A DNA stretch of 64,000 nucleotides from Bacteroidales bacterium (GTDB lineage Bacteria > Bacteroidota > Bacteroidia > Bacteroidales > UBA932): positions 126,007 to 190,006 of the forward strand of contig JAFRRA010000005.1 in assembly GCA_017428325.1 (NCBI GenBank), given 5' to 3'. Positions within the stretch are counted from its first letter, which is position 1; each line of letters begins with the position of its first letter. The notes beneath the pieces are model-generated. The model saw nothing but the letters and a program-made list of their open reading frames with translations. It had not been told where the DNA came from and made no database searches. Of the stretch, positions 34,266-43,154 are shown piece by piece. The translations under genes and the position numbers were made by a program.

Positions 34266-35930
34266 CTATTTCTGAGGATTAATGTAGCGGTCTCCGGTAT
34301 GAGACTTTACCGCCTCTATGAAGGCAGGGGCATAGGCCGGAGATGTATGTCTGCCAGGGGCCAGTTCTCCGTCTTTGGACGGCAGCATGATTTGGTCATT
34401 GTGCTTTACAATGATGAGTTTTGCGAGCTTGTCCCAGCGCTTCATCATCTTGTCTGTGTATTGCTCTGTCTTGCGGGTGAGGAAATCGCTGAGATCGCTA
34501 GGAGTCATCTTTGCGGCGGCTTCCTCAACCTTCTTCTGGTCTTCCTCGTAGTAGTCTTCCAGTTCTTTCTGGGCTTCTTTGAGGTCCGGATAGAGGGCGC
34601 TCCATCTCGGATAAACCATATTGGCAACAAAGTTGTTCATCCAGAAGGCGCTTCCCGTGGAGAACTCGCGTACGTTGTTGTTCTCCCTGCGGAAAGGCTC
34701 CGGGATGCGGTTAATTCCGCAATAGACCGGAACATAGGCCACCATCGTGGCATCGTCGAGGTTAAAATAGGTTACTCCGCCCAGGGCGTCAGGAAGCCAG
34801 TTTCTCATCTGGCAAACCATTGTCATTCCGCTCTGCTGGCAGCCGATTGGCCTCTCCCTGAACATCTTGGTGGAGTCGCTGCTGTAGAAATTGACCGGCT
34901 GGTTGCGGTAAGGAGAGCCCCAAGGGCCTGCGCTTACGTCCGCAGTCATGTCGAGAGCGGTTCCCTCATAGTGGTCTCTCATGTCGTTCATTATGTCTCT
35001 TACGCTGACTGGTTTGTCAGGCTTGATCCACAGAGGAAGATGGTCGCAGATCTCAACCTTTCCGTTTATGAACGGCAGGTATGAGTCCATCTCTGCCTTG
35101 TCATAGTGGTGGCGGAAGAAGCTCCATACACGGGCCTCACAGTAGCGGATCTTGCTGAAATCCATTGGCTGGTAGGCGTCCCTGAAGCTGAAGTCCTTGT
35201 CTTCTCCGCTGTAATAACCCATCTCGCGGGCAAAGGAAATGATGTCTGAAGAATACATGCACTCGTTTTCAACGATGCAGAATCCCAGTTTCTTGTCGGC
35301 TTTCTTTGCCTGAGGAAACTGCATTATCCTGCTTGAGTTGGCATAAGCGGTAATGCAGTCATCGGGGAGCCTCATTGCAATCCAGATTGCTCCCTTGCGG
35401 CCCTTTCCCTTGCCGATTATCTCCATAATCCAGGCCTCTTCCTTGTCGCACACTGCAAAGGATTCTCCTGTGGAGTTGTAGCCGTATTCCTGCACCAGCT
35501 GGTGTATTATCTCAATGGCCTCGCGTGCTGTAGCTGCCCTCTGGAGAGTAACGTGCATCAGTGTGAAGTAGTCGAAATATCCTTCCGGATTGCGGAGTTC
35601 CCTGCGTCCGTCCCAGGTGGTTTCCACGATGCTTACCTGATGGTCGTTCATCAGCCCTACAACACCATATGTATAAGGTACTTGCTTTACGAGCCTCTGT
35701 CCTGCTTGTGGTCCCCAGCCCCTTATGTTAATCATTTCATCTGCCGGATGCATTCCGGGCATGGAGAAAGAAAGTGATGCGGCAAAGCCGAAGCCGTCGC
35801 AATTGTATGTGCATATCACGCTTCCGTCCGTGGAAGCTTTCTTTCCGACAATAAGGTTTGTACAGGCGTCAGCCGTAGAAGGCTGGAAAATGAGCAGTGC
35901 GCCCACGAGAATGGTAAACAGGCGTTTCAT
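34266..35930 (-). CDS. C69-family dipeptidase
   Basis: A signal peptide is followed by the nucleophile context TADACTNLIVGKKAS. Length and overall pattern fit peptidase C69. I set the start at the ATG at 35928-35930. Confidence 0.85.
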   Translation of the reverse strand: MKRLFTILVGALLIFQPSTADACTNLIVGKKASTDGSVICTYNCDGFGFAASLSFSMPGMHPADEMINIRGWGPQAGQRLVKQVPYTYGVVGLMNDHQVSIVETTWDGRRELRNPEGYFDYFTLMHVTLQRAATAREAIEIIHQLVQEYGYNSTGESFAVCDKEEAWIMEIIGKGKGRKGAIWIAMRLPDDCITAYANSSRIMQFPQAKKADKKLGFCIVENECMYSSDIISFAREMGYYSGEDKDFSFRDAYQPMDFSKIRYCEARVWSFFRHHYDKAEMDSYLPFINGKVEICDHLPLWIKPDKPVSVRDIMNDMRDHYEGTALDMTADVSAGPWGSPYRNQPVNFYSSDSTKMFRERPIGCQQSGMTMVCQMRNWLPDALGGVTYFNLDDATMVAYVPVYCGINRIPEPFRRENNNVREFSTGSAFWMNNFVANMVYPRWSALYPDLKEAQKELEDYYEEDQKKVEEAAAKMTPSDLSDFLTRKTEQYTDKMMKRWDKLAKLIIVKHNDQIMLPSKDGELAPGRHTSPAYAPAFIEAVKSHTGDRYINPQK

Positions 35931-36016
35931 AAATATCAGATGTTTTATATCGCGATATAAATATACGATAATTAATGATAATTGTCTTATCTTTACTGAA
36001 TAATACATATCTGATT

Positions 36017-37594
36017 ATGAAAAAACTGTTCGTTCTTCTGGCCGTTTTCCTGCTACCGGCGTTTTCTGCGGCACAGGCCGTCCATACAACCCTTCAGCAG
36101 GAGGAGGCTTTGCTCCGCGACTGGATAAAGACAATATCTTCAGACGAATTCGGAGGCCGTAAGCCGATGACGCCTTACGAAGAGAAAACCATAAACTATA
36201 TGGTAGACCAGATGAAGGCTCTTGGCTTGAAGCCGGCCTTTAACGGAAGCTGGTTCCAGCCATTCAAGATGATTTCCACCACCTGCAAACCGGTAGGGGA
36301 CAAGTTCCGCGTAAAGGGCAAAAAGAAGACGGAACTCATCCATAAAGAGGATATGATGGTCTGGACCGCAAGGGCAACGGACAAGGTCAAGTTGCCTTCT
36401 GCAGAAATAGTCTTCTGCGGATTCGGGATTGACGCTCCGGAATTCAACTGGAACGATTTCGACGGAATAGACGTTAAGGGCAAGATAATCATCGCGATGG
36501 TAAATGAGCCGGGGTATTACAACCCTTCTCTTTTCCGCGGCAGGAACATGACTTATTACGGAAGGTGGCTCTACAAGTTCGAGCAGGCAAAGAGGATGGG
36601 CGCTGCAGGATGCCTGGTGCTGCACAACACTGAGGCTGCCGGTTACGGATGGCACGTTTGCGTAAACGGCCATATTGAAAGCAATCTTGCCTTGTATGAC
36701 GAGGATACAAACAACTCTGATGCGCTTGCCATAAAGGGATGGCTTCACGAGAAAGGCTGCCGAAAACTGTTTGCCGCAGCCGGGATGGACTTCGAAGCCG
36801 CGCTTGAAGCCGCCAAGAAGCCGGGTTTCAAGGCCTTCAGCCTCAACCTCAAGTGCGATGTAGACATGGACGTGGAATATAACATCGACCAGACCTGCAA
36901 CGTTGCCGGAATGATCGAGGGCACGGACCTAAAGGACGAGTGCGTGGTTTTCAACGCCCATTGGGACCACCTTGGAATAGGCCTTCCGGATGACAGGGGA
37001 GACTCCATTTACAACGGGGCTTCGGACAATGCCTCCGCGATGGCCGCCCTGCTTTTTGCCGCCAAGAAGAGTTTCGAGATGCCGGTAAAACCTCGCAGGA
37101 CATTGATTTTCCTGAGCGCATCGTCTGAGGAAAGCGGTATGTTCGGATCCCAGTATTATTGCGAGCATCCCGCATTTCCTATGGAGAAGACAGCAGCCTG
37201 CATAAACTTCGAGAGCGTCGGTCCGGCAGAACTTACCCACGATATCAGCGTCATGGGAGGAGGGGCCTGTGAACTGGACAATTACATCGTCGAGGCCGCT
37301 GCCGCACAGGGCCGTTATGTTTTCTTCAAGTATGACAATTCAGACGGCTGGTTCTTCAGGTCAGACCATTTCAACTTCGTGAAAAAGGGCGTTCCGGCAC
37401 TGGTCATAGAAAACGGAAAGGACATCGTTGACCCTTCCCGTCCTAACAAATATCCTTACAAGAGCATATATCACAGGCCGATAGACGAGTATCACGACGA
37501 TTGGGACATAGAGGGAATGATCGCCAACATCAACCTTATGTTCAGTATGGGAATCCGTGCCGCCAATTCGGACAAGGCGCCACGCTGGTATTAG
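36017..37594 (+). CDS. M28-family metallopeptidase (aminopeptidase) with PA-like insert
   Basis: The protein has a signal peptide ([21 protein letters not shown]). Zinc-ligand contexts are [33 protein letters not shown] and YHRPIDE. Confidence 0.8.
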
Positions 37595-37610
37595 AATAAG
37601 TTTAAAGATT

Positions 37611-38186
37611 ATGTTTATAGATACTTTGAAAGAACGTATCCTCAAGGAAGGCAAGTGCTTTGAGGGTGGAGTGCTGAAAGTTGACCGTTTCATCAACCAT
37701 CAGATGGATCCATATCTGATGAAGCAGATTTCCATTGAGTTCATCCGCCGTTTTGCCGATTTGAGTGTCAACAAGATAGTTACCGTAGAGGCTTCCGGCA
37801 TTGCTCCTGCGGTGATGCTGGGCTATCAGATGGAGCTTCCTGTAGTCTTTGTAAAGAAGCAGCAGCCTTCTACGATGTCAGATATGTATGTTGCTCATTC
37901 AAGGTCATTTACCAAGCAGTGCGACTACAATATGGTTATCAGCAAGGAGTTTCTTACCTCGGATGACCACGTGCTTTTCATAGATGATTTCCTTGCCTGC
38001 GGGAGTGCCGGAAAGGGTATAGTTGACCTGTGCCGCCAGGCCGGGGCCACAATCGAGGGAATGGGGTTCATCATTGAAAAGGAATTCCAGATGGGCCGTC
38101 ATGTGCTTGAAGCCGCCGGTGTGAAGCGTATCGAGTCTCTTGCTATAATCGAATCCCTGGATAACGGCCAGATTAAGTTCAAGTAA
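37611..38186 (+). CDS. xpt: Xanthine phosphoribosyltransferase
   Basis: [15 protein letters not shown]...[13 protein letters not shown]... is present, with the PRPP motif [13 protein letters not shown]. Confidence 0.85.
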
Positions 38187-38204
38187 TCGGCAAGTTGAAG
38201 CGGG

Positions 38205-38564
38205 TCAGTCTGAAACCAGTGAATGAAGTTTGAAGGAGATATAGCCTTTGCTGTCCAGATAGGTTATGGCATCATTAAGCAAGGCCTTCTTTCTGGATTC
38301 ATCGAGATCCGAATAGAAAAGTATCTCCATAAATGTTTCCAGCGCCCTGTCTGAAAACTTCTTCTCCTCCACAAGATAGCATACAGGATTTTCCTGCTTA
38401 AGGACAGATTCCAGGTCTATCTCAAGATCTGCTTTGCAGAATTCCTCCTTCACATTTGAAAGGGAATAGTCCGGCTTCTTCCTGCCAAACAATCCCAATC
38501 GCCTTGCAATCATCAGCATCATTTCTCCGATGCGGTCTATCTCTCTCAGAAGCACGTCTTCCAT
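38205..38564 (-). CDS. Hypothetical cytoplasmic protein
   Basis: The 119-aa ORF has protein-like composition. I recognise no motif. Confidence 0.5.
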   Translation of the reverse strand: MEDVLLREIDRIGEMMLMIARRLGLFGRKKPDYSLSNVKEEFCKADLEIDLESVLKQENPVCYLVEEKKFSDRALETFMEILFYSDLDESRKKALLNDAITYLDSKGYISFKLHSLVSD

Positions 38565-38576
38565 AGTGATTTCTTT

Positions 38577-39464
38577 TTACTTCAGCGATTTTAACCAGAT
38601 CAAGGAATCTTCCATTGGAGTTTCTGTGTTTACATCCGGCTCGATAGGGTCGTCGCAGAATTCTTCTCCAGTCCTTGCCACATCGCAGCCTTCAGTCAGC
38701 ACAAGCATAGAGCCGTCAGCCATCTTGTAAGGGCGGTTGCTTGACGCATATCCTGCTGTCGGCGAGCCAAATACACGGGTATTCTCCACTCCGCGGAAAC
38801 ATATCAGAAGCGCTTCAGCTGAACTTCCGGTTCCTTCGTCGGTGAGAATGGCTACAGGGCACTGTATAGGTGTCAGTTTCTTTATCCCGGCAACATTCAA
38901 TACATAGTCCAGAGTAATCCACATCGTTCTTTTCCTGGAGCGGAAGCGGAGTATGTTTCCATCCGGAATGAACCTGTGTACAGAGCTGATCATAGGGTAC
39001 ATATCACCTCCGCCGTTTCCCCTGAGGTCTATAATAACTCCTTCAATATCTTCCGGAATTGCTTCTATTACAGTGTTGGCATATTTCCGTCCCTCTTCAC
39101 TGTTACCTGAAAACATAGGTAGCTTAACCACCGCAATCTTCAAAGAATCAAAGAGCTCCACTTCCGGCATCTCCCACTTTGAAGTATCCTCCTTGACCAC
39201 AATATCAGATTCCTTCAGGAAAGAGTGCTTCCCGCCTGCTACTTGCAAAGCCTTTTTGACCACATCGTGAGCCTCTTCCATCGTAAGCGGATTTGCTGAC
39301 AGCGCTTCTTTCTTTGCCATTTCCCATTCATCTCCAGTGGCATACAGCCCGCTTCTGTCCATAATCTTGACAGCCTTTTTCACATAGCTCCTGCCAGGAT
39401 CCGTACACCCAAAAGCAATTAAAACCATCGTGATGGCAAAAAAGAATCTTGATATCCTTTTCAT
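38577..39464 (-). CDS. S41-family peptidase (lipoprotein)
   Basis: The lipobox is LIAFGCTD. The motifs DLRGNGGG and GTGSSAEAL are typical of tail-specific/S41 proteases. Confidence 0.75.
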   Translation of the reverse strand: MKRISRFFFAITMVLIAFGCTDPGRSYVKKAVKIMDRSGLYATGDEWEMAKKEALSANPLTMEEAHDVVKKALQVAGGKHSFLKESDIVVKEDTSKWEMPEVELFDSLKIAVVKLPMFSGNSEEGRKYANTVIEAIPEDIEGVIIDLRGNGGGDMYPMISSVHRFIPDGNILRFRSRKRTMWITLDYVLNVAGIKKLTPIQCPVAILTDEGTGSSAEALLICFRGVENTRVFGSPTAGYASSNRPYKMADGSMLVLTEGCDVARTGEEFCDDPIEPDVNTETPMEDSLIWLKSLK

Positions 39465-39494
39465 CTGAATAAACAATCAAATCCGCTACGAAAC

Positions 39495-39520: not shown

Positions 39521-39529
39521 GCGTTTAGG

Positions 39530-39611
39530 TGCGGGTAAAGGGACTCGAACCCCCACGGATTACTCCACCAGATCCTAAGTCTGGCGCGGCTGCCAATTAC
39601 GCCATACCCGC
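39530..39611 (-). tRNA. tRNA-Leu (anticodon TAG)
   Basis: This 82-nt class II tRNA has acceptor stem GCGGGTA/TACCCGC and anticodon arm CCAGA-CTTAGGA-TCTGG. It has a long variable arm (TGGAGTAATCCGT) and T-loop TTCGAGT. Confidence 0.88.
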
Positions 39612-39620
39612 ATTGGATTG

Positions 39621-39628
39621 CAAAGGTA
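39621..39628 (-). promoter_or_regulatory. -7 box (TACCTTTG) for tRNA-Leu
   Basis: The reverse complement of caaaggta lies about 10 nt upstream of the tRNA 5' end. Confidence 0.5.
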
Positions 39629-39701: not shown

Positions 39702-39709
39702 TATATTTG
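39702..39709 (+). promoter_or_regulatory. -7 box (TATATTTG) for the lipoprotein/radical SAM operon
   Basis: This is an exact TAnnTTTG match 14 nt upstream of the ATG at 39723. Confidence 0.5.
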
Positions 39710-39722
39710 TGGTGTATAGGAG

Positions 39723-40172
39723 ATGAAAACGATGTCTAGGAAAAGAAATATTCTGGCATTTTTGGTTTCAGCCTTTGGAATAAGTGTTACCATTGGCTGT
39801 TGCGCATATGGTACTCCTTACACAACTCTTAAGATTAAGGCAACGGTTACGGATGAAACCAATCAACCTGTATCCGATGCAAAACTCGAGTTCAAAGACT
39901 TGAACTACAATCACAAACATCTTGAGCTTGTTACTGATTCTAAAGGCAGAATAGATTATTCTCACGATTTGTACCATTCTTATTACGGGTCTGATAACCT
40001 GAAAGAGGGTGCCAATATCGTTTTTTTAGGAGATCATAACGCCGGGTTGCCGGTCAAATACAGAGATGACTCGATAAGGGTCCAGTCTTCATACAAGAAG
40101 GGGAAAGGCGATTGGCATAAAGGAACTTATGAGATAAAGGCATCGCTGAGGCTTAAGAAAAAAACGGAGTAA
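39723..40172 (+). CDS. Radical-SAM-associated small lipoprotein, paralogue A
   Basis: The 149-aa ORF has the lipobox SVTIGCC. It shares the blocks AYGTPYTTLKIKATVTDETNQPV and KYRDDSIRV...GKGDWHKGTYEIKASLRLKKK with the two paralogues. Confidence 0.75.
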   Translation: MKTMSRKRNILAFLVSAFGISVTIGCCAYGTPYTTLKIKATVTDETNQPVSDAKLEFKDLNYNHKHLELVTDSKGRIDYSHDLYHSYYGSDNLKEGANIVFLGDHNAGLPVKYRDDSIRVQSSYKKGKGDWHKGTYEIKASLRLKKKTE

Positions 40173-40190
40173 AATTAATATTATTTAAAT

Positions 40191-40634
40191 ATGAAACTGT
40201 TCAAGAAGATATTGGTTGGTGCTATGGCGCTGATGGGTTTTTCCGCCTGCGGCAGTAATCATGGCCCTCAGGTTGAGTACGGTTGCCCGCACGCAACTCT
40301 CAGGGTAAATGCTACCGTGGTAGATGAGGATGGCAATCCTGTAGGCAAGACCAGGTTGCTGCTGAGGGATCTTGAGAAAAACCATGATCTCGTTCAAGTG
40401 GAGACGGGGGAAGACGGAACGGTTTCGGATACCTTGCAGCTCTTTGCTGATTTGCGGCTTACATCCGGGGCCAATGTAGTCTACTATGGCGAAGATAATG
40501 AGGAGCACTCAGGCAAGTTCAAGGATGATTCCGTTACAGTTAAGGCCGAGCAGATTAAGGAGGGGGCAGGTACCTGGGAAAAAGGAACTTATGAGATGAA
40601 CGTCAATCTCAAACTCCAGAAGAAAGGCGAGTAA
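40191..40634 (+). CDS. Radical-SAM-associated small lipoprotein, paralogue B
   Basis: The 147-aa ORF has the lipobox GFSACG. It shares the blocks EYGCPHATLRVNATVVDEDGNPV and KFKDDSVTV...GAGTWEKGTYEMNVNLKLQKK. Confidence 0.75.
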   Translation: MKLFKKILVGAMALMGFSACGSNHGPQVEYGCPHATLRVNATVVDEDGNPVGKTRLLLRDLEKNHDLVQVETGEDGTVSDTLQLFADLRLTSGANVVYYGEDNEEHSGKFKDDSVTVKAEQIKEGAGTWEKGTYEMNVNLKLQKKGE

Positions 40635-40648
40635 AATCAGATAGTTAT

Positions 40649-41734
40649 ATGAGGGGGCTTCCATTCAGGACCTGGCTTGCCTGCGAGGCGGAGCGGAAGC
40701 TCCGGCATTTGGATATCAAGGATCATAAACTCAAGCAGCTCTTTTGGGAGTGTACGCTCTCGTGCAACCTGGCTTGCAGGCATTGCGGGAGTGACTGTAA
40801 GATTCTGCCTAGCGCCACATCCATGAAGATGGAGGATTTCCTGAAGGTGCTGGATTCCGTAAAGGCTTATTGCGAAAAGACAGGAGACAAGACGGGGGAG
40901 ATACTGGTTATTCTGACCGGTGGCGAGCCTTTAATGCGCAAGGATTTGGAGGAATGCGGACGCAAAATAATCCAGAAAGGTTTCCCGTGGGGAATGGTCA
41001 CCAACGGTTATGCTATGACTTCGGAGAGATTCCGGCGGCTGATGGCTTCCGGCCTGCATTCAATGACAGTTAGCCTGGACGGACTGAAGGAATCTCACGA
41101 CTGGATGAGAGGACGTTCAGGAAGTTATGAGAAAGCGATTGAAGCCATAAAGCTGGCGATAGCGGCAGGGGACGACCTTGCCTTTGATGTTGTTACCTGC
41201 GTAAACCAGCGCAATTACAGTGAACTTAACCAGATAAAGAAACTGCTGATATCAATGGGTCTCAAGCAATGGAGAGTCTTTACCGTGTTCCCTTCCGGAA
41301 GGGCCAAGGAGGATCCTCTACTGCAGCTGGACAACGAGCGTTTCCGCGGAGTGATGGAGTTCATAGAAGCTACCCGCAAGGAAGGCAAAATCCAGTGCAG
41401 TTACTCTTGCGAAGGATTTCTGGGTGCTTATGAAGGCAAGGTGAGAAACCATTTGTTCCGCTGCCATGCCGGAGTGAATGTGGGCTCTGTGCTCAACGAC
41501 GGTTCCATCTCCGCCTGCGTGAGCATCCGTTCAGACTATAACCAGGGAAATATCTACAAGGATGACTTTATGGAAGTCTGGAACAACCGTTTCCAGGTTT
41601 ACCGAGACAGGTCCTGGATGAAAAAAGACCAGTGCGCTTCCTGCAAGTTCTTCCGCTACTGCGAAGGCGGGGGAATGCATCTGAGGAATTCTGACGGCAG
41701 CCTTCAGTTCTGCCACCTCGACCGTCTGAAATAA
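40649..41734 (+). CDS. Radical SAM enzyme with C-terminal SPASM/twitch-type Cys-rich domain
   Basis: The CX3CX2C motif is CNLACRHC at residues 39-46. The GGEPL motif is ILTGGEPLMRKD. The C-terminal Cys cluster includes CHAG...SAC...CASCKFFRYCEGG...FCH (CxxCx5C). Confidence 0.88.
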   Translation: MRGLPFRTWLACEAERKLRHLDIKDHKLKQLFWECTLSCNLACRHCGSDCKILPSATSMKMEDFLKVLDSVKAYCEKTGDKTGEILVILTGGEPLMRKDLEECGRKIIQKGFPWGMVTNGYAMTSERFRRLMASGLHSMTVSLDGLKESHDWMRGRSGSYEKAIEAIKLAIAAGDDLAFDVVTCVNQRNYSELNQIKKLLISMGLKQWRVFTVFPSGRAKEDPLLQLDNERFRGVMEFIEATRKEGKIQCSYSCEGFLGAYEGKVRNHLFRCHAGVNVGSVLNDGSISACVSIRSDYNQGNIYKDDFMEVWNNRFQVYRDRSWMKKDQCASCKFFRYCEGGGMHLRNSDGSLQFCHLDRLK

Positions 41735-41756
41735 TTTTTTTTTTGGGGGGAATATC

Positions 41757-41764
41757 TATATTTG
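41757..41764 (+). promoter_or_regulatory. -7 box (TATATTTG) for lipoprotein paralogue C
   Basis: This is an exact TAnnTTTG match 22 nt upstream of the ATG at 41786. A T10G6 homopolymer tract at 41735-41750 precedes it. Confidence 0.45.
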
Positions 41765-41785
41765 CCATAAAGAACGGATTGAGTT

Positions 41786-42283
41786 ATGGTAAAAAAAGCG
41801 TTGTCACTTTACAAATACCTGCTGGGCGGCCTGTTGGCGTTGCTCGGTCTGACTGCATGTTCTAAAGTCATTAAAGCTGCATATGGCAGTCCATATGCAC
41901 GTCTGAATGTTGATGCAAGGGTTGTGGATCAGTCAAATAAACCTGTCAAGGATGCCAGATTGATTGTCCGCACGTCACTCACTGAAACTTCATATTCTTC
42001 TGTTATGAGAGACACGGTAATCAATGGTCAGCCGTCTTGGATCAATACTACAAATGAAACTGGCAGGATATACGGTTATACAGAATCTTTTTCAGAACCG
42101 GATAAGGATTACACCTATATTGTTTACCGCAGCAATTTAAATCCTCAGTTGTCCGGCAAATACGAAGATGATTCCGTAAAAGTAGTACCTGCGATGGTAG
42201 AAAAGGGAGACGGTAATTGGTATCGCGGGACGTTCAAAATGTCGGGAACCGTTAAGCTAAAGGAGAAGGCTCCAGACGAGTAA
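41786..42283 (+). CDS. Radical-SAM-associated small lipoprotein, paralogue C
   Basis: The 165-aa ORF has the lipobox LGLTACS. It shares the blocks AYGSPYARLNVDARVVDQSNKPV and KYEDDSVKV...GDGNWYRGTFKMSGTVKLKEK. Confidence 0.75.
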   Translation: MVKKALSLYKYLLGGLLALLGLTACSKVIKAAYGSPYARLNVDARVVDQSNKPVKDARLIVRTSLTETSYSSVMRDTVINGQPSWINTTNETGRIYGYTESFSEPDKDYTYIVYRSNLNPQLSGKYEDDSVKVVPAMVEKGDGNWYRGTFKMSGTVKLKEKAPDE

Positions 42284-42285
42284 AG

Positions 42286-42313
42286 AAAAAGCCCTGCACC
42301 GCAGGGCTTTTTT
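42286..42313. terminator. Bidirectional rho-independent terminator (lipoprotein C / tpiA)
   Basis: The sequence is AAAAA-AGCCCTGC-acc-GCAGGGCT-TTTTT, a perfect 8-bp GC-rich stem flanked by A and T runs. Confidence 0.8.
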
Positions 42314-42329: not shown

Positions 42330-43154
42330 TTAAAAGCTCTTGGCGATGGCGATAAAGTCGTCTGCCTTGAGGCTTGCGCCACCGATCAGGCCGCCGTCAA
42401 TGTCTTTCTGGCTAAAAAGTTCCCGGGCGTTGGAAGGCTTGCAGCTTCCGCCGTAGAGGATGGAAGTTTCTTCTGCAAGGGCTCCGAACTTCTCTGCCAG
42501 AGTCTTGCGGATGAAAGCGTGGATTTCCTGAGCCTGCTCCTTGGTTGCGGTCTCGCCGGTTCCTATGGCCCAGATTGGCTCGTATGCGACAACGATATTT
42601 TTCATCTGCTCAGGGCTGAGGTTGAAAAGGACTTCCTTTATTTCCTCTGCGACTACATCAAAGTGCTTTCCTGCCTTTCTTTCCTCGAGGGCTTCTCCTA
42701 CGCAGTAGATGACTTTAAGGCCGGCTGCCAGTGCCTGGCCTATTTTCTCAAGAAGGATGGCGTTGGTTTCTCCGTAGTAGCCTCTTCTTTCCGAATGGCC
42801 GAGGATAACATACTCTACAGGGGCTCCGGTAGCGCCTTCGGGGGCGCCGGCTACGGTTCCTACCGCCTTGCTTACGGATGCGAGCATTTTGGCTGAAACC
42901 TCTCCGGTGTAAGCGCCTTTTTCCTTGTCAGAGCAGTTCTGGGCGCCGAGAGAGAGCTTGCTGCGGCAGAACGGGCATTTGATGTCGCCGATGATCTTGC
43001 TTACAGGGAAAAGATGGGTGAAAGGAGTGTTCACGATGAGTTTCACGTCCTGAGGTACGTCTTCTATCTTTGCGATTATCTGGTTAACAAGGTCGATTCC
43101 TTCGGCAACTGTGGTGTTCATTTTCCAGTTTCCGGCAACAATTTTCTGTCTCAT
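42330..43154 (-). CDS. tpiA: Triose-phosphate isomerase (with two insertions)
   Basis: The motifs are IVAGNWKMN, GAYTGEVS, YVILGHSERR, AYEPIWAIGTG and LYGGSCKPSNA. I set the start at the ATG at 43152-43154 (MRQKIVAGNWKMN). Confidence 0.9.
   Translation of the reverse strand: MRQKIVAGNWKMNTTVAEGIDLVNQIIAKIEDVPQDVKLIVNTPFTHLFPVSKIIGDIKCPFCRSKLSLGAQNCSDKEKGAYTGEVSAKMLASVSKAVGTVAGAPEGATGAPVEYVILGHSERRGYYGETNAILLEKIGQALAAGLKVIYCVGEALEERKAGKHFDVVAEEIKEVLFNLSPEQMKNIVVAYEPIWAIGTGETATKEQAQEIHAFIRKTLAEKFGALAEETSILYGGSCKPSNARELFSQKDIDGGLIGGASLKADDFIAIAKSF

What the first reader, a model, noticed from the sequence alone, without database searches (positions are those of the whole stretch)
39702..42313. 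Radical SAM/SPASM enzyme embedded among three paralogous small lipoproteins: candidate protein-maturation system of unknown chemistry
Seen in the sequence:
- The unit is compact and on one strand, bounded by a TATATTTG -7 box (39702) and a strong bidirectional terminator (42286-42313).
- It encodes lipoprotein A (149 aa), lipoprotein B (147 aa), a 361-aa radical SAM enzyme and lipoprotein C (165 aa). The gaps between the first three genes are only 18 and 14 nt.
- The enzyme has CNLACRHC (CX3CX2C) starting at residue 39. Its C-terminal region holds seven Cys, including CASCKFFRYC (CxxCx5C), which is SPASM/twitch-like.
- Only about 38 residues precede the cluster motif, which leaves no room for a PqqD-like RiPP recognition element.
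- No small precursor-peptide ORF fits in the gaps.

Established knowledge:
- SPASM-domain radical SAM enzymes (anSME, PqqE, AlbA, StrB and relatives) modify peptide or protein substrates that are usually encoded next to them.
- anSME shows that a cytoplasmic radical SAM enzyme can modify Sec-exported proteins before export.

Inference: the three lipoproteins are the substrates, or obligate partners, of the enzyme.

I recall that curated HMM collections contain a family named roughly 'radical SAM-associated putative lipoprotein'. If so, the pairing has been noticed bioinformatically. I cannot verify membership here, and I know of no experimental characterisation. A triplicated lipoprotein set around one enzyme looks unusual to me.
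Basis: partly seen in the sequence, partly recalled or inferred. Interest (0 to 1): 0.85.

Follow-up and report, generated by a model that had tools for sequence, protein, structure and literature searches.

The report
Radical SAM enzyme with partner lipoproteins
This is a typical copy of a two-gene module already catalogued in databases but never studied experimentally, found in gut and rumen Bacteroidales: one radical SAM enzyme that probably modifies the small, fast-evolving lipoproteins encoded beside it before they are exported.

Summary
**Observation:** confirmed. Four + strand ORFs are present as described: LipA 39723-40172, LipB 40191-40634, a radical SAM/SPASM enzyme 40649-41734 and LipC 41786-42283. 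The gaps and the terminator hairpin are also as described.

**Identity:**
- The enzyme belongs to NCBIfam TIGR04133 (547 bits, cutoff 425).
- All three lipoproteins belong to TIGR04134, 'radical SAM-associated putative lipoprotein'.
- The pairing is therefore already curated. I found no experimental paper on it.

**Census:** in 80 loci (79 reference genomes plus the window) the lipoprotein is adjacent to the enzyme in 79, and no third gene is conserved.
- One copy is the commonest state (54 of 80).
- Arrays of 2-4 copies recur, so three copies are not unusual.

**New here:**
- The most conserved parts of the lipoprotein are an invariant G-F before the lipobox Cys and an invariant [E/M]-Y-G-x-P motif before each beta-sandwich domain.
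- The enzyme lacks one canonical SPASM Cys (Gly342) and has no RRE.
- Lipoprotein genes turn over (indel, cassette replacement) beside a 91-94% conserved enzyme.

**Best reading (about 0.5):** the enzyme modifies the prelipoproteins in the cytoplasm before export, as anSME does for sulfatases. The chemistry is unknown.

The parts
39702..39709 (+). Bacteroidetes-type -7-like box TATATTTG, 13 nt before the LipA ATG
   Evidence: Sequence. The pattern is not enriched in the window, so it is a positional hint only.
39723..40172 (+). LipA, TIGR04134 lipoprotein (149 aa). Lipobox TIGC, then AYGTP motif. It is an insertion relative to the closest relatives.
   Evidence: NCBIfam 50.9 bits against cutoff 39.8. 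Absent from L001, L002, L003 and L005; an 81% aa orthologue occurs only in L004.
40191..40634 (+). LipB, TIGR04134 lipoprotein (147 aa). Signal peptide ...LMGFSAC, then EYGCP motif and a beta-sandwich.
   Evidence: NCBIfam 73.6 bits. AF2 pLDDT 87.8: signal helix 2-15, low-confidence tether, eight strands from 34 to 142. Weak Foldseek matches to CnaB, CarboxypepD_reg and transthyretin-like sandwiches.
40649..41734 (+). Radical SAM/SPASM enzyme of family TIGR04133 (361 aa). C39-x3-C43-x2-C46; SPASM Cys 254, 272, 290, 329, 332, 338 and 355; Gly342 in place of the fourth Cys of CX2CX5CX3C.
   Evidence: NCBIfam 547.5 bits against cutoff 425. Pfam Radical_SAM and SPASM. Invariant columns. Alignment to anSME and SuiB. 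AF2 pLDDT 89. Foldseek matches to BlsE, PqqE, SkfB, SuiB, anSME and ChlB.
41757..41764 (+). Second TATATTTG box, 22 nt before the LipC ATG; possible internal promoter
   Evidence: Not tested further.
41786..42283 (+). LipC, TIGR04134 lipoprotein (165 aa). Lipobox LTAC, then AYGSP motif. The cassette is replaced in close relatives.
   Evidence: NCBIfam 74.6 bits. 92% aa to L001 but only 39-42% aa to the equivalent genes of L002 and L003, whose enzymes are 91-94% identical.
42286..42313 (.). Intrinsic terminator hairpin with an A-run and a T-run, between the convergent LipC and tpiA genes
   Evidence: 13-bp stem, -20.6 kcal/mol, z = -5.6, 0 of 200 shuffles fold as well.

Best explanation
**What it is.** A self-contained two-component module: one cytoplasmic radical SAM/SPASM enzyme (TIGR04133) and 1-4 small lipoproteins (TIGR04134). 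This locus has three.

**How it most likely works.**
1. The enzyme modifies the lipoprotein precursors in the cytoplasm, while they are still unfolded and carry their signal peptide. anSME does the same for sulfatases.
2. The precursors are then exported through Sec, cleaved and lipidated at the lipobox Cys, and fold into a membrane-tethered beta-sandwich.
3. I propose that recognition uses the unusually conserved end of the signal peptide (L-L-G-F-x-x-C).
4. I propose that the site of chemistry is the invariant Tyr-Gly of the [E/M]-Y-G-x-P motif that precedes every family-type domain.
5. The reaction itself is unknown. My leading guess is a short-range modification on or next to the Tyr, for example a three-residue Tyr-to-X3 cyclophane (-2 Da), as made by compact SPASM enzymes such as ChlB.

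**Shown:** family membership, obligate adjacency, copy-number range, motif conservation, folds, the missing SPASM Cys.

**Inferred:** the substrate relationship, the timing before export, the recognition element, the site and the chemistry.
For: **Linkage**
- Both families pass their curated cutoffs.
- A lipoprotein gene is adjacent to the enzyme gene in 79 of 80 loci. Many junctions overlap by 1 or 4 nt, which suggests translational coupling.
- The reciprocal test held in 3 of 3 look-ups.
- No transporter, protease, precursor peptide or other biosynthetic gene is conserved nearby. The next most frequent neighbours are purM (13 loci), purH (11) and tpiA (9).

**Conservation pattern in the lipoprotein**
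- The enzyme stays at 57% identity or more across the 79 loci (Prevotella, Alistipes, Phocaeicola and many unnamed Bacteroidales). The lipoproteins fall to 21-35%.
- What stays conserved is outside the fold. EYGxP carries 3.5 bits per column and the signal-peptide end plus lipobox 3.0, against 1.5-2.5 for the sandwich.
- Y, G and the G at -4 are invariant in 87 of 87 sequences.
- G at -4 and F at -3 are specific to this family. They occur in 9% and 6% of other candidate lipoboxes from the same loci.
- Each family-type domain of multi-domain members has its own YGxP.
- Generic CarboxypepD_reg repeats of the same fold lack the motif.
- Some members carry the motif twice in tandem.

**Enzyme**
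- Full-length structural matches of the same size, TM 0.66-0.68, include anSME and the cyclophane synthase ChlB (PMC12912966).
- There is no RRE.

**Established knowledge**
- anSME modifies Sec-exported sulfatases before export.
- SAM and a low-potential reductant are available only in the cytoplasm.
Against: - There is no direct evidence that the enzyme touches the lipoprotein.
- The invariant Tyr, Gly, Pro and Trp could be purely structural. YGxP sits exactly where the confident part of the AF2 model begins.
- The best-scoring characterised HMMs are tetrapyrrole enzymes (AhbD, NirJ2). The top fold match is the nucleoside decarboxylase BlsE.
- Apart from the lipobox Cys, no Cys or Ser is conserved, so the usual thioether or formylglycine chemistry has no obvious target.
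- The co-variation test between enzyme and lipoprotein columns was uninformative.
Confidence: 0.5

Rival explanations
1. The enzyme makes or alters a small molecule, such as a tetrapyrrole-like or nucleoside-like compound or a lipid. The lipoproteins are periplasmic or surface binding or handling proteins for that product, not substrates.
For: - The best non-self HMM matches are AhbD (138 bits) and NirJ2 (127 bits).
- The top fold match is BlsE, with DesII and BtrN also listed.
- There is no RRE.
- The lipoprotein is a stable, well-predicted fold with a conserved acidic loop D-x-D-G-x-x-N-G-G in most members.
Against: - All those HMM scores are far below their curated cutoffs.
- No exporter or further biosynthetic gene is conserved nearby.
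- A binding protein for a conserved ligand would be expected to keep a conserved pocket. Instead the sandwich is the least conserved part, and whole cassettes are swapped beside a 91-94% identical enzyme.
- The acidic loop has decayed in all three window copies.
- Lipoprotein copy number varies from 1 to 4 per enzyme.
Confidence: 0.2
2. The lipoprotein is an accessory or regulatory partner, for example a membrane tether or a sensor, and the enzyme's real protein substrate is encoded elsewhere in the genome.
For: - Adjacency shows a functional link but does not say which kind.
- Makarova et al. proposed small auxiliary proteins encoded directly upstream of SPASM enzymes in Bacteroides graspetide clusters (PMC8939145).
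Against: - After export the lipoprotein is on the other side of the inner membrane from an Fe-S enzyme, so a stable complex could exist only before export.
- Several divergent copies per enzyme and fast cassette turnover look like variable substrates rather than a fixed partner.
- No second conserved candidate substrate is seen near the module.
Confidence: 0.15
3. The conserved 'lipobox' Cys is not lipidated. It is the sulfur donor for a thioether cross-link: it binds the incompletely ligated auxiliary cluster I, as the substrate Cys does in CteB, so the products are cross-linked secreted proteins rather than lipoproteins.
For: - The fourth Cys of CX2CX5CX3C, an Aux I ligand in anSME, is an invariant Gly.
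- The lipobox Cys is the only Cys conserved across the lipoprotein family.
Against: - The N-terminus is a canonical type II signal peptide: a basic n-region, a hydrophobic helix, then small residues and Cys.
- The spacing from this Cys to the YG motif varies from 2 to 20 residues, which fits poorly with a defined ring.
- Second and third domains of multi-domain members carry YGxP with no invariant Cys before it.
- The invariant His344 or another conserved Cys (C50, C103, C184) could complete the cluster.
Confidence: 0.05

Closest known systems
NCBIfam/TIGRFAMs pair TIGR04133 (rSAM_w_lipo) and TIGR04134 (lipo_with_rSAM); JGI name 'rSAM/lipoprotein system'
   Same: All four proteins pass the curated cutoffs. 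The gene adjacency that defines the pair is present.
   Different: Nothing of substance. This locus has three lipoprotein copies where one is the commonest state. The families are 'hypothetical equivalogs' with no assigned function, and I found no experimental paper.
Anaerobic sulfatase-maturating enzyme (anSME, PDB 4K36-4K39)
   Same: - Similar size (361-392 aa), radical SAM core plus SPASM domain, no RRE.
- Full-length structural match with TM 0.66-0.68.
- By established knowledge, it acts in the cytoplasm on proteins that are then exported through Sec.
   Different: - Only 19-20% identity.
- anSME's target motif C/S-x-P-x-R is not among the conserved positions of the lipoproteins.
- anSME's Aux I ligand Cys330 corresponds to Gly342 here.
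- anSME serves many unlinked sulfatase genes, whereas this enzyme is always encoded next to its presumed targets.
Three-residue cyclophane synthases of triceptide RiPPs (for example ChlB, PDB 9GMC and 9GM3)
   Same: - Compact SPASM enzyme of about 370 aa, TM about 0.65-0.67.
- They act on aromatic-X-X motifs such as Y-S-K (PMC12912966). The lipoproteins have an invariant Tyr in Y-G-x.
   Different: - Their substrates are short leader-plus-core peptides, later cut by a protease and exported by dedicated systems.
- Here the candidate substrates are 150-aa folded lipoproteins with a Sec/SPII signal, and no protease or transporter is linked.
- Only 15-16% identity. The chemistry proposed here is untested.
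QhpD/QhpC (a radical SAM/SPASM enzyme that cross-links the small subunit of quinohemoprotein amine dehydrogenase); from my own knowledge, not tested here
   Same: A SPASM enzyme modifies a protein rather than a peptide. The modification happens in the cytoplasm before the protein reaches the periplasm, and the two genes are neighbours.
   Different: QhpC is Cys-rich, receives Cys-to-Asp/Glu thioethers and leaves through a dedicated ABC exporter. TIGR04134 proteins have no conserved internal Cys and carry a lipoprotein signal peptide.
AhbD / NirJ2 (SPASM enzymes that modify heme-type tetrapyrroles)
   Same: The best-scoring characterised families in NCBIfam, matched over almost the full length.
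   Different: 138 and 127 bits against cutoffs of 500, so this is not a member. No tetrapyrrole genes are conserved nearby.

Membership tests
TIGR04133 family radical SAM/SPASM protein | Whole-protein HMM score above the curated cutoff (425 bits) | tested here: met
   547.5 bits, E = 1.1e-164, residues 6-360 on model positions 1-349 of 350.
TIGR04133 family radical SAM/SPASM protein | CX3CX2C radical SAM cluster motif and a C-terminal SPASM domain | tested here: met
   C39, C43 and C46 are invariant. Pfam Radical_SAM 73.9 bits and SPASM 31.7 bits, both above their cutoffs. Variant: Gly342 replaces the fourth Cys of CX2CX5CX3C.
TIGR04133 family radical SAM/SPASM protein | Encoded next to a TIGR04134 lipoprotein | tested here: met
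   Flanked by three such genes in the window. The same holds in 79 of 80 loci.
TIGR04134 radical SAM-associated putative lipoprotein | Whole-protein HMM score above the curated cutoff (39.8 bits) | tested here: met
   LipA 50.9, LipB 73.6 and LipC 74.6 bits.
TIGR04134 radical SAM-associated putative lipoprotein | Type II (lipoprotein) signal peptide with a lipobox Cys | tested here: met
   By sequence inspection: a basic n-region, a hydrophobic stretch, then ...GFSAC...GLTAC and ...TIGC. AF2 predicts a helix at residues 2-15 followed by a low-confidence tether. No dedicated signal-peptide predictor was available, and lipidation itself is untested.
Anaerobic sulfatase-maturating enzyme (anSME) | Family-level sequence match, and a substrate carrying the C/S-x-P-x-R motif | tested here: not met
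   No anSME model is among the best 25 NCBIfam matches. PDB anSME is matched only at E = 2.4e-8 and 19-20% identity. The lipoproteins show no conserved C/S-x-P-x-R.
RRE-dependent RiPP maturases (PqqE, SuiB, CteB type) | An N-terminal PqqD-like RiPP recognition element and an adjacent short precursor peptide | tested here: not met
   No PqqD or RRE domain in Pfam. Only one helix (6-25) precedes the core. Intergenic gaps of 18, 14 and 51 nt hold no precursor ORF.
AhbD heme b synthase / NirJ2 | HMM score above the curated cutoff (500 bits) | tested here: not met
   138.3 and 127.2 bits.
Prokaryotic viperin (pVip) defence | Family-level match and defence context | tested here: not met
   PADLOC pVip 73.8 bits over the radical SAM core only. 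NCBIfam viperin 76.5 bits against cutoff 180. The lipoproteins have no PADLOC match.

The most novel reading that the evidence does not exclude
The enzyme installs a previously undescribed post-translational modification on the invariant Tyr-Gly of full-length, Sec-exported lipoproteins, for example a Tyr cyclophane or another cross-link. It uses the conserved end of the signal peptide as its 'leader'. That would be the first radical SAM maturation system for lipoproteins. It would serve a family of hypervariable, cassette-swapping beta-sandwich proteins of the cell envelope found in hundreds of gut and rumen Bacteroidales species.
Probability: 0.35. Interest if true: 0.8.

Novelty: new member of a known kind. 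Interest (0 to 1): 0.45.

Why it matters
**Scale.** The module is very common in gut and rumen Bacteroidales. Its function is nevertheless a blank.

**If the lipoproteins are the substrates**, the module would:
- extend radical SAM/SPASM chemistry from peptides and sulfatases to a class of envelope lipoproteins;
- give a new protein modification in abundant gut commensals;
- explain why one highly conserved enzyme is kept beside rapidly diversifying lipoprotein cassettes.

**For this window**, the practical value is modest. It is a typical member of a catalogued family. It does add a defined candidate site (Y-G-x-P), a candidate recognition element (G-F-x-x-C) and a list of cultured carriers on which to test the idea.

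Tried and rejected
- **Literature.** Searches for TIGR04133, TIGR04134 and the family name found one paper, where 'TIGR04134' is a typo for a T9SS C-terminal-domain model. Two broader searches found nothing on this system. The 2011 SPASM paper by Haft and Basu is not held in the library.
- **Reciprocal census through metagenome contigs.** I replaced it with three exact-protein look-ups.
- **Co-variation between lipoprotein and enzyme columns** (87 pairs, normalised mutual information). The signal tracks column entropy and clade-specific features. The N-terminal motif columns do not stand out. Uninformative.
- **Simple terminator scan.** It missed the real hairpin. Folding settled the question.
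- **Defence-system reading.** PADLOC returns only a generic radical SAM core match to viperins and nothing for the lipoproteins. Rejected.
- **The adjacent S41 peptidase lipoprotein as a third component.** It is conserved only in the closest relatives, not across the family. Rejected.
- **A true enzyme-lipoprotein fusion in L057.** The enzyme ORF reads through in frame into a lipoprotein gene that keeps its own Met and signal peptide. This does not show a cytoplasmic fusion protein.
- **An autocatalytic isopeptide bond, as in CnaB domains.** The fold hits are weak (E of 2e-4 or worse), and the first-strand Lys is present in only 45 of 87 sequences. Not pursued.


Full report
**1. The observation**

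| Gene | Coordinates | Length |
|---|---|---|
| LipA | 39723-40172 | 149 aa |
| LipB | 40191-40634 | 147 aa |
| Radical SAM enzyme | 40649-41734 | 361 aa |
| LipC | 41786-42283 | 165 aa |

- The gaps are 18, 14 and 51 nt. None can hold a precursor-peptide ORF.
- The enzyme has C39-x3-C43-x2-C46. Seven Cys in its C-terminal half are invariant in 50 homologues: 254, 272, 290, 329, 332, 338 and 355. An eighth, C250, is specific to this clade.
- The hairpin at 42286-42313 is a strong terminator: 13 bp, -20.6 kcal/mol, z = -5.6.
- TATATTTG is at 39702. The consensus TANNTTTG is no commoner in the window than chance (38 against 33), so it is only a positional hint.
- An identical box at 41757 lies 22 nt upstream of LipC and may give LipC its own promoter.
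- A tRNA-Leu(TAG) lies on the other strand just upstream, at 39528-39611.

**2. What it is**

- NCBIfam places the enzyme in TIGR04133 (547.5 bits, cutoff 425).
- All three lipoproteins fall in TIGR04134, 'radical SAM-associated putative lipoprotein' (50.9, 73.6 and 74.6 bits; cutoff 39.8).
- Public sources already use these names or 'rSAM/lipoprotein system' for close homologues.
The pairing is a curated pair of 'hypothetical equivalogs' with no assigned function.
- I found no paper that studies it. The one text hit is a typo for a T9SS domain model.

**3. How general the arrangement is**

*Size and range.*
- The 79 loci kept are from Bacteroidales: Prevotella, Phocaeicola, Alistipes, Muribaculaceae and many rumen MAGs.
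- The window is closest to rumen MAG RGIG7951 (96% identity for the enzyme).

*Census with an iterated lipoprotein HMM over 79 loci plus the window.*

| Architecture (L = lipoprotein, R = enzyme) | Loci |
|---|---|
| LR | 37 |
| RL | 17 |
| LRL | 11 |
| LLR | 7 |
| LLRL | 3 |
| LLRLL | 1 |
| RLLLL | 1 |
| LLLR | 1 |
| LRRL | 1 |
| R only | 1 |

- A lipoprotein gene is adjacent in 79 of 80 loci. The exception, L071, starts at the contig edge.
- Many L-R junctions overlap by 1 or 4 nt, which suggests translational coupling.
- Some of the extra L calls are low-scoring fragments. About 18 loci carry two or more full-length copies.
- Starting instead from three divergent lipoproteins, every contig carried the enzyme, with arrays of three or four lipoprotein genes.
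- Clustering all ORFs of the loci found no third conserved gene. The next most frequent neighbours are housekeeping genes: purM in 13 loci, purH in 11, tpiA in 9.
- The module is therefore autonomous, and three copies is within its normal range.

**4. Anatomy of the lipoproteins**

*Fold.*
- AF2 on a 106-sequence alignment gives a confident model of LipB (pLDDT 87.8): a signal helix at 2-15, a low-confidence tether, and an eight-strand beta-sandwich from 34 to 142.
- Foldseek finds only weak matches (E of 2e-4 or worse). They are CnaB pilin domains, the SusC N-terminal CarboxypepD_reg domain, intradiol dioxygenase sandwiches and transthyretin-like proteins.
- An exhaustive profile search shows that the first half of the sandwich is shared with giant repeat proteins, in the sampled case (P0371) made of generic CarboxypepD_reg-type repeats.

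*What is family-specific lies outside the fold (87 full-length sequences).*
- The G at position -4 from the lipobox Cys is invariant, and F at -3 occurs in 80 of 87 (L-L-G-F-x-x-C).
- Tyr and Gly of an [E/M]-Y-G-x-P motif are invariant, and the Pro occurs in 83 of 87. The motif lies 2-20 residues (mode 9) after the Cys.
- EYGxP carries 3.5 bits per column and the signal-peptide end 3.0, against 1.5-2.5 for the sandwich.
- In other candidate lipoboxes of the same loci, G at -4 and F at -3 occur in only 9% and 6% (a crude control).
- Each family-type domain of two- and three-domain members has its own YGxP. A generic middle domain in P0284 and generic repeat proteins such as P0371 lack it.
- A few members carry the motif twice in tandem.
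- A second conserved element, G-D-G-x-W-Y-x-G-x-[YF], lies near the C-terminus.
- An acidic loop D-x-D-G-x-x-N-G-G is common in the family but has decayed in all three window copies.

**5. Anatomy of the enzyme**

- AF2 gives pLDDT 89. One helix (6-25) precedes the radical SAM core, so there is no RRE.
- Structural neighbours are a mix of small-molecule enzymes (BlsE, DesII) and protein- or peptide-modifying SPASM enzymes (PqqE, SkfB, SuiB, anSME, ChlB).
- anSME and ChlB match over the full length at TM about 0.66-0.68 and are of similar size.
- ChlB is a three-residue cyclophane synthase acting on aromatic-X-X motifs (PMC12912966).
- Alignment to anSME and SuiB shows that the last Cys of CX2CX5CX3C is an invariant Gly342 here. 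In anSME that Cys is C330, an Aux I ligand; the residue number and ligand role come from my own knowledge of the structure.
- By position I infer that Aux I would be held by C254, C272 and C290, with a fourth ligand unknown. The invariant H344, another conserved Cys, or the substrate are candidates.

**6. Evolutionary behaviour**

- Flanking synteny (S41 peptidase gene, tRNA-Leu, module, tpiA) is kept at about 90% nucleotide identity in L001-L003. The lipoprotein genes are the variable part.
- LipA is absent from L001, L002, L003 and L005. It has an 81% orthologue only in L004.
- The LipC interval (about 41800-42300) drops to about 50% nucleotide identity in L002 and L003. That is 39-42% at the protein level, with sharp boundaries, while the enzyme next to it is 91-94% identical.
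- This looks like cassette replacement or diversifying selection on the lipoproteins beside a strongly constrained enzyme.

**7. Most likely mechanism (confidence about 0.5)**

- The enzyme needs SAM and a reductant, so it must work in the cytoplasm. The lipoproteins leave through Sec.
- The simplest model that fits the evidence is anSME-like: the enzyme modifies the unfolded prelipoprotein before export. The evidence is obligate linkage, no other partner, several divergent copies per enzyme, and conservation concentrated in a short N-terminal region.
- I propose that the conserved G-F-x-x-C end of the signal peptide is the recognition element and that the Y-G of YGxP is the site.
- The chemistry is open. 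A Tyr-to-X3 cyclophane (-2 Da) is my leading guess because of the ChlB resemblance, but nothing here tests it.

**8. Rivals**

- **A small-molecule enzyme whose product the lipoprotein binds (0.2).** Its support is the AhbD, NirJ2 and BlsE resemblances. Against it are scores far below the cutoffs, the absence of an exporter or pathway genes, and the hypervariable sandwich.
- **The lipoprotein as an accessory partner, with the substrate encoded elsewhere (0.15).**
- **The lipobox Cys as a thioether donor to the open Aux I site (0.05).** This fits poorly with the canonical type II signal peptide and the variable Cys-to-YG spacing.
- The co-variation test could not discriminate between these.

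**9. Comparison and verdict**

- Membership in TIGR04133 and TIGR04134 is met on every testable feature.
- Membership in anSME, RRE-type RiPP maturases, AhbD/NirJ and pVip is not met.
- The locus is a new member of a known, catalogued but uncharacterised kind.
What remains interesting belongs to the family as a whole: a very widespread radical SAM module in gut Bacteroidales whose substrate and chemistry are unknown. This analysis adds a specific candidate site and recognition element.
- Interest 0.45.

Noticed in passing
window 39723-40172 and 41800-42300; L001-L005: The lipoprotein genes are the variable part of an otherwise ~90% conserved locus. LipA is an indel: it is absent from L001, L002, L003 and L005. 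The LipC interval falls to ~50% nucleotide identity with sharp boundaries in L002 and L003, next to a 91-94% identical enzyme. This suggests cassette swapping or diversifying selection.
   Followed up: partly
window 41757-41764: A second TATATTTG (-7-like) box lies 22 nt upstream of the LipC start codon, inside the 51-nt gap after the enzyme gene. LipC may have its own promoter.
   Followed up: no
window 39528-39611 (-) and 39621-39628 (-): tRNA-Leu(TAG) is transcribed divergently from the module. A TACCTTTG box sits 10 nt upstream of its 5' end, so the 110-nt spacer probably holds two divergent promoters.
   Followed up: no
L057 5956-7557 (Prevotella aff. ruminicola Tc2-24): The enzyme ORF has no stop codon and runs in frame into the downstream lipoprotein gene, giving a 533-aa ORF. 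The lipoprotein part keeps its own Met and signal peptide, so it may still be translated separately.
   Followed up: partly
L022 (contig CAVERO010000146.1): A contig binned as 'Candidatus Methanomethylophilaceae archaeon' carries a typical Bacteroidales-type LR module, with an enzyme 60% identical to the window's. This is probably a binning error rather than an archaeal occurrence.
   Followed up: no
L048, L049, L076; L080/L081 3372-3924: In several loci the lipoprotein gene is split into two short ORFs (99+76 aa, 98+76 aa, 82+80 aa). In others a run of 43-62-aa ORFs lies between the last lipoprotein gene and the enzyme. These look like frameshifted or decaying copies; the L080/L081 run was not checked against the lipoprotein HMM.
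   Followed up: no
L067 5247-~12100: Two complete enzyme-plus-lipoprotein modules lie in opposite orientation about 4 kb apart in one genome (uncultured Bacteroides sp. UMGS933).
   Followed up: no
L064 6384-7178, L075 7129-7929; proteins P0141, P0284, P0292: There are two- and three-domain versions of the lipoprotein. Each family-type domain has its own [E/M]YGxP and G-x-G-x-W motifs. The middle domain of P0284 is a generic CarboxypepD_reg domain without either motif.
   Followed up: partly
window 34266-39476: Three peptidase genes lie upstream of the module: C69 (34266-36008, -), M28 (35975-37594, +) and an S41 lipoprotein (38577-39476, -). The S41 gene is conserved only in the closest relatives, so it is not part of the module.
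   Followed up: partly
window 42330-43151 (-): The triosephosphate isomerase product is about 273 aa against a 245-position Pfam model. It carries an extra Gly/Ala/Pro-rich stretch (…VGTVAGAPEGATGAPVEY…) before the conserved GHSERR.
   Followed up: no
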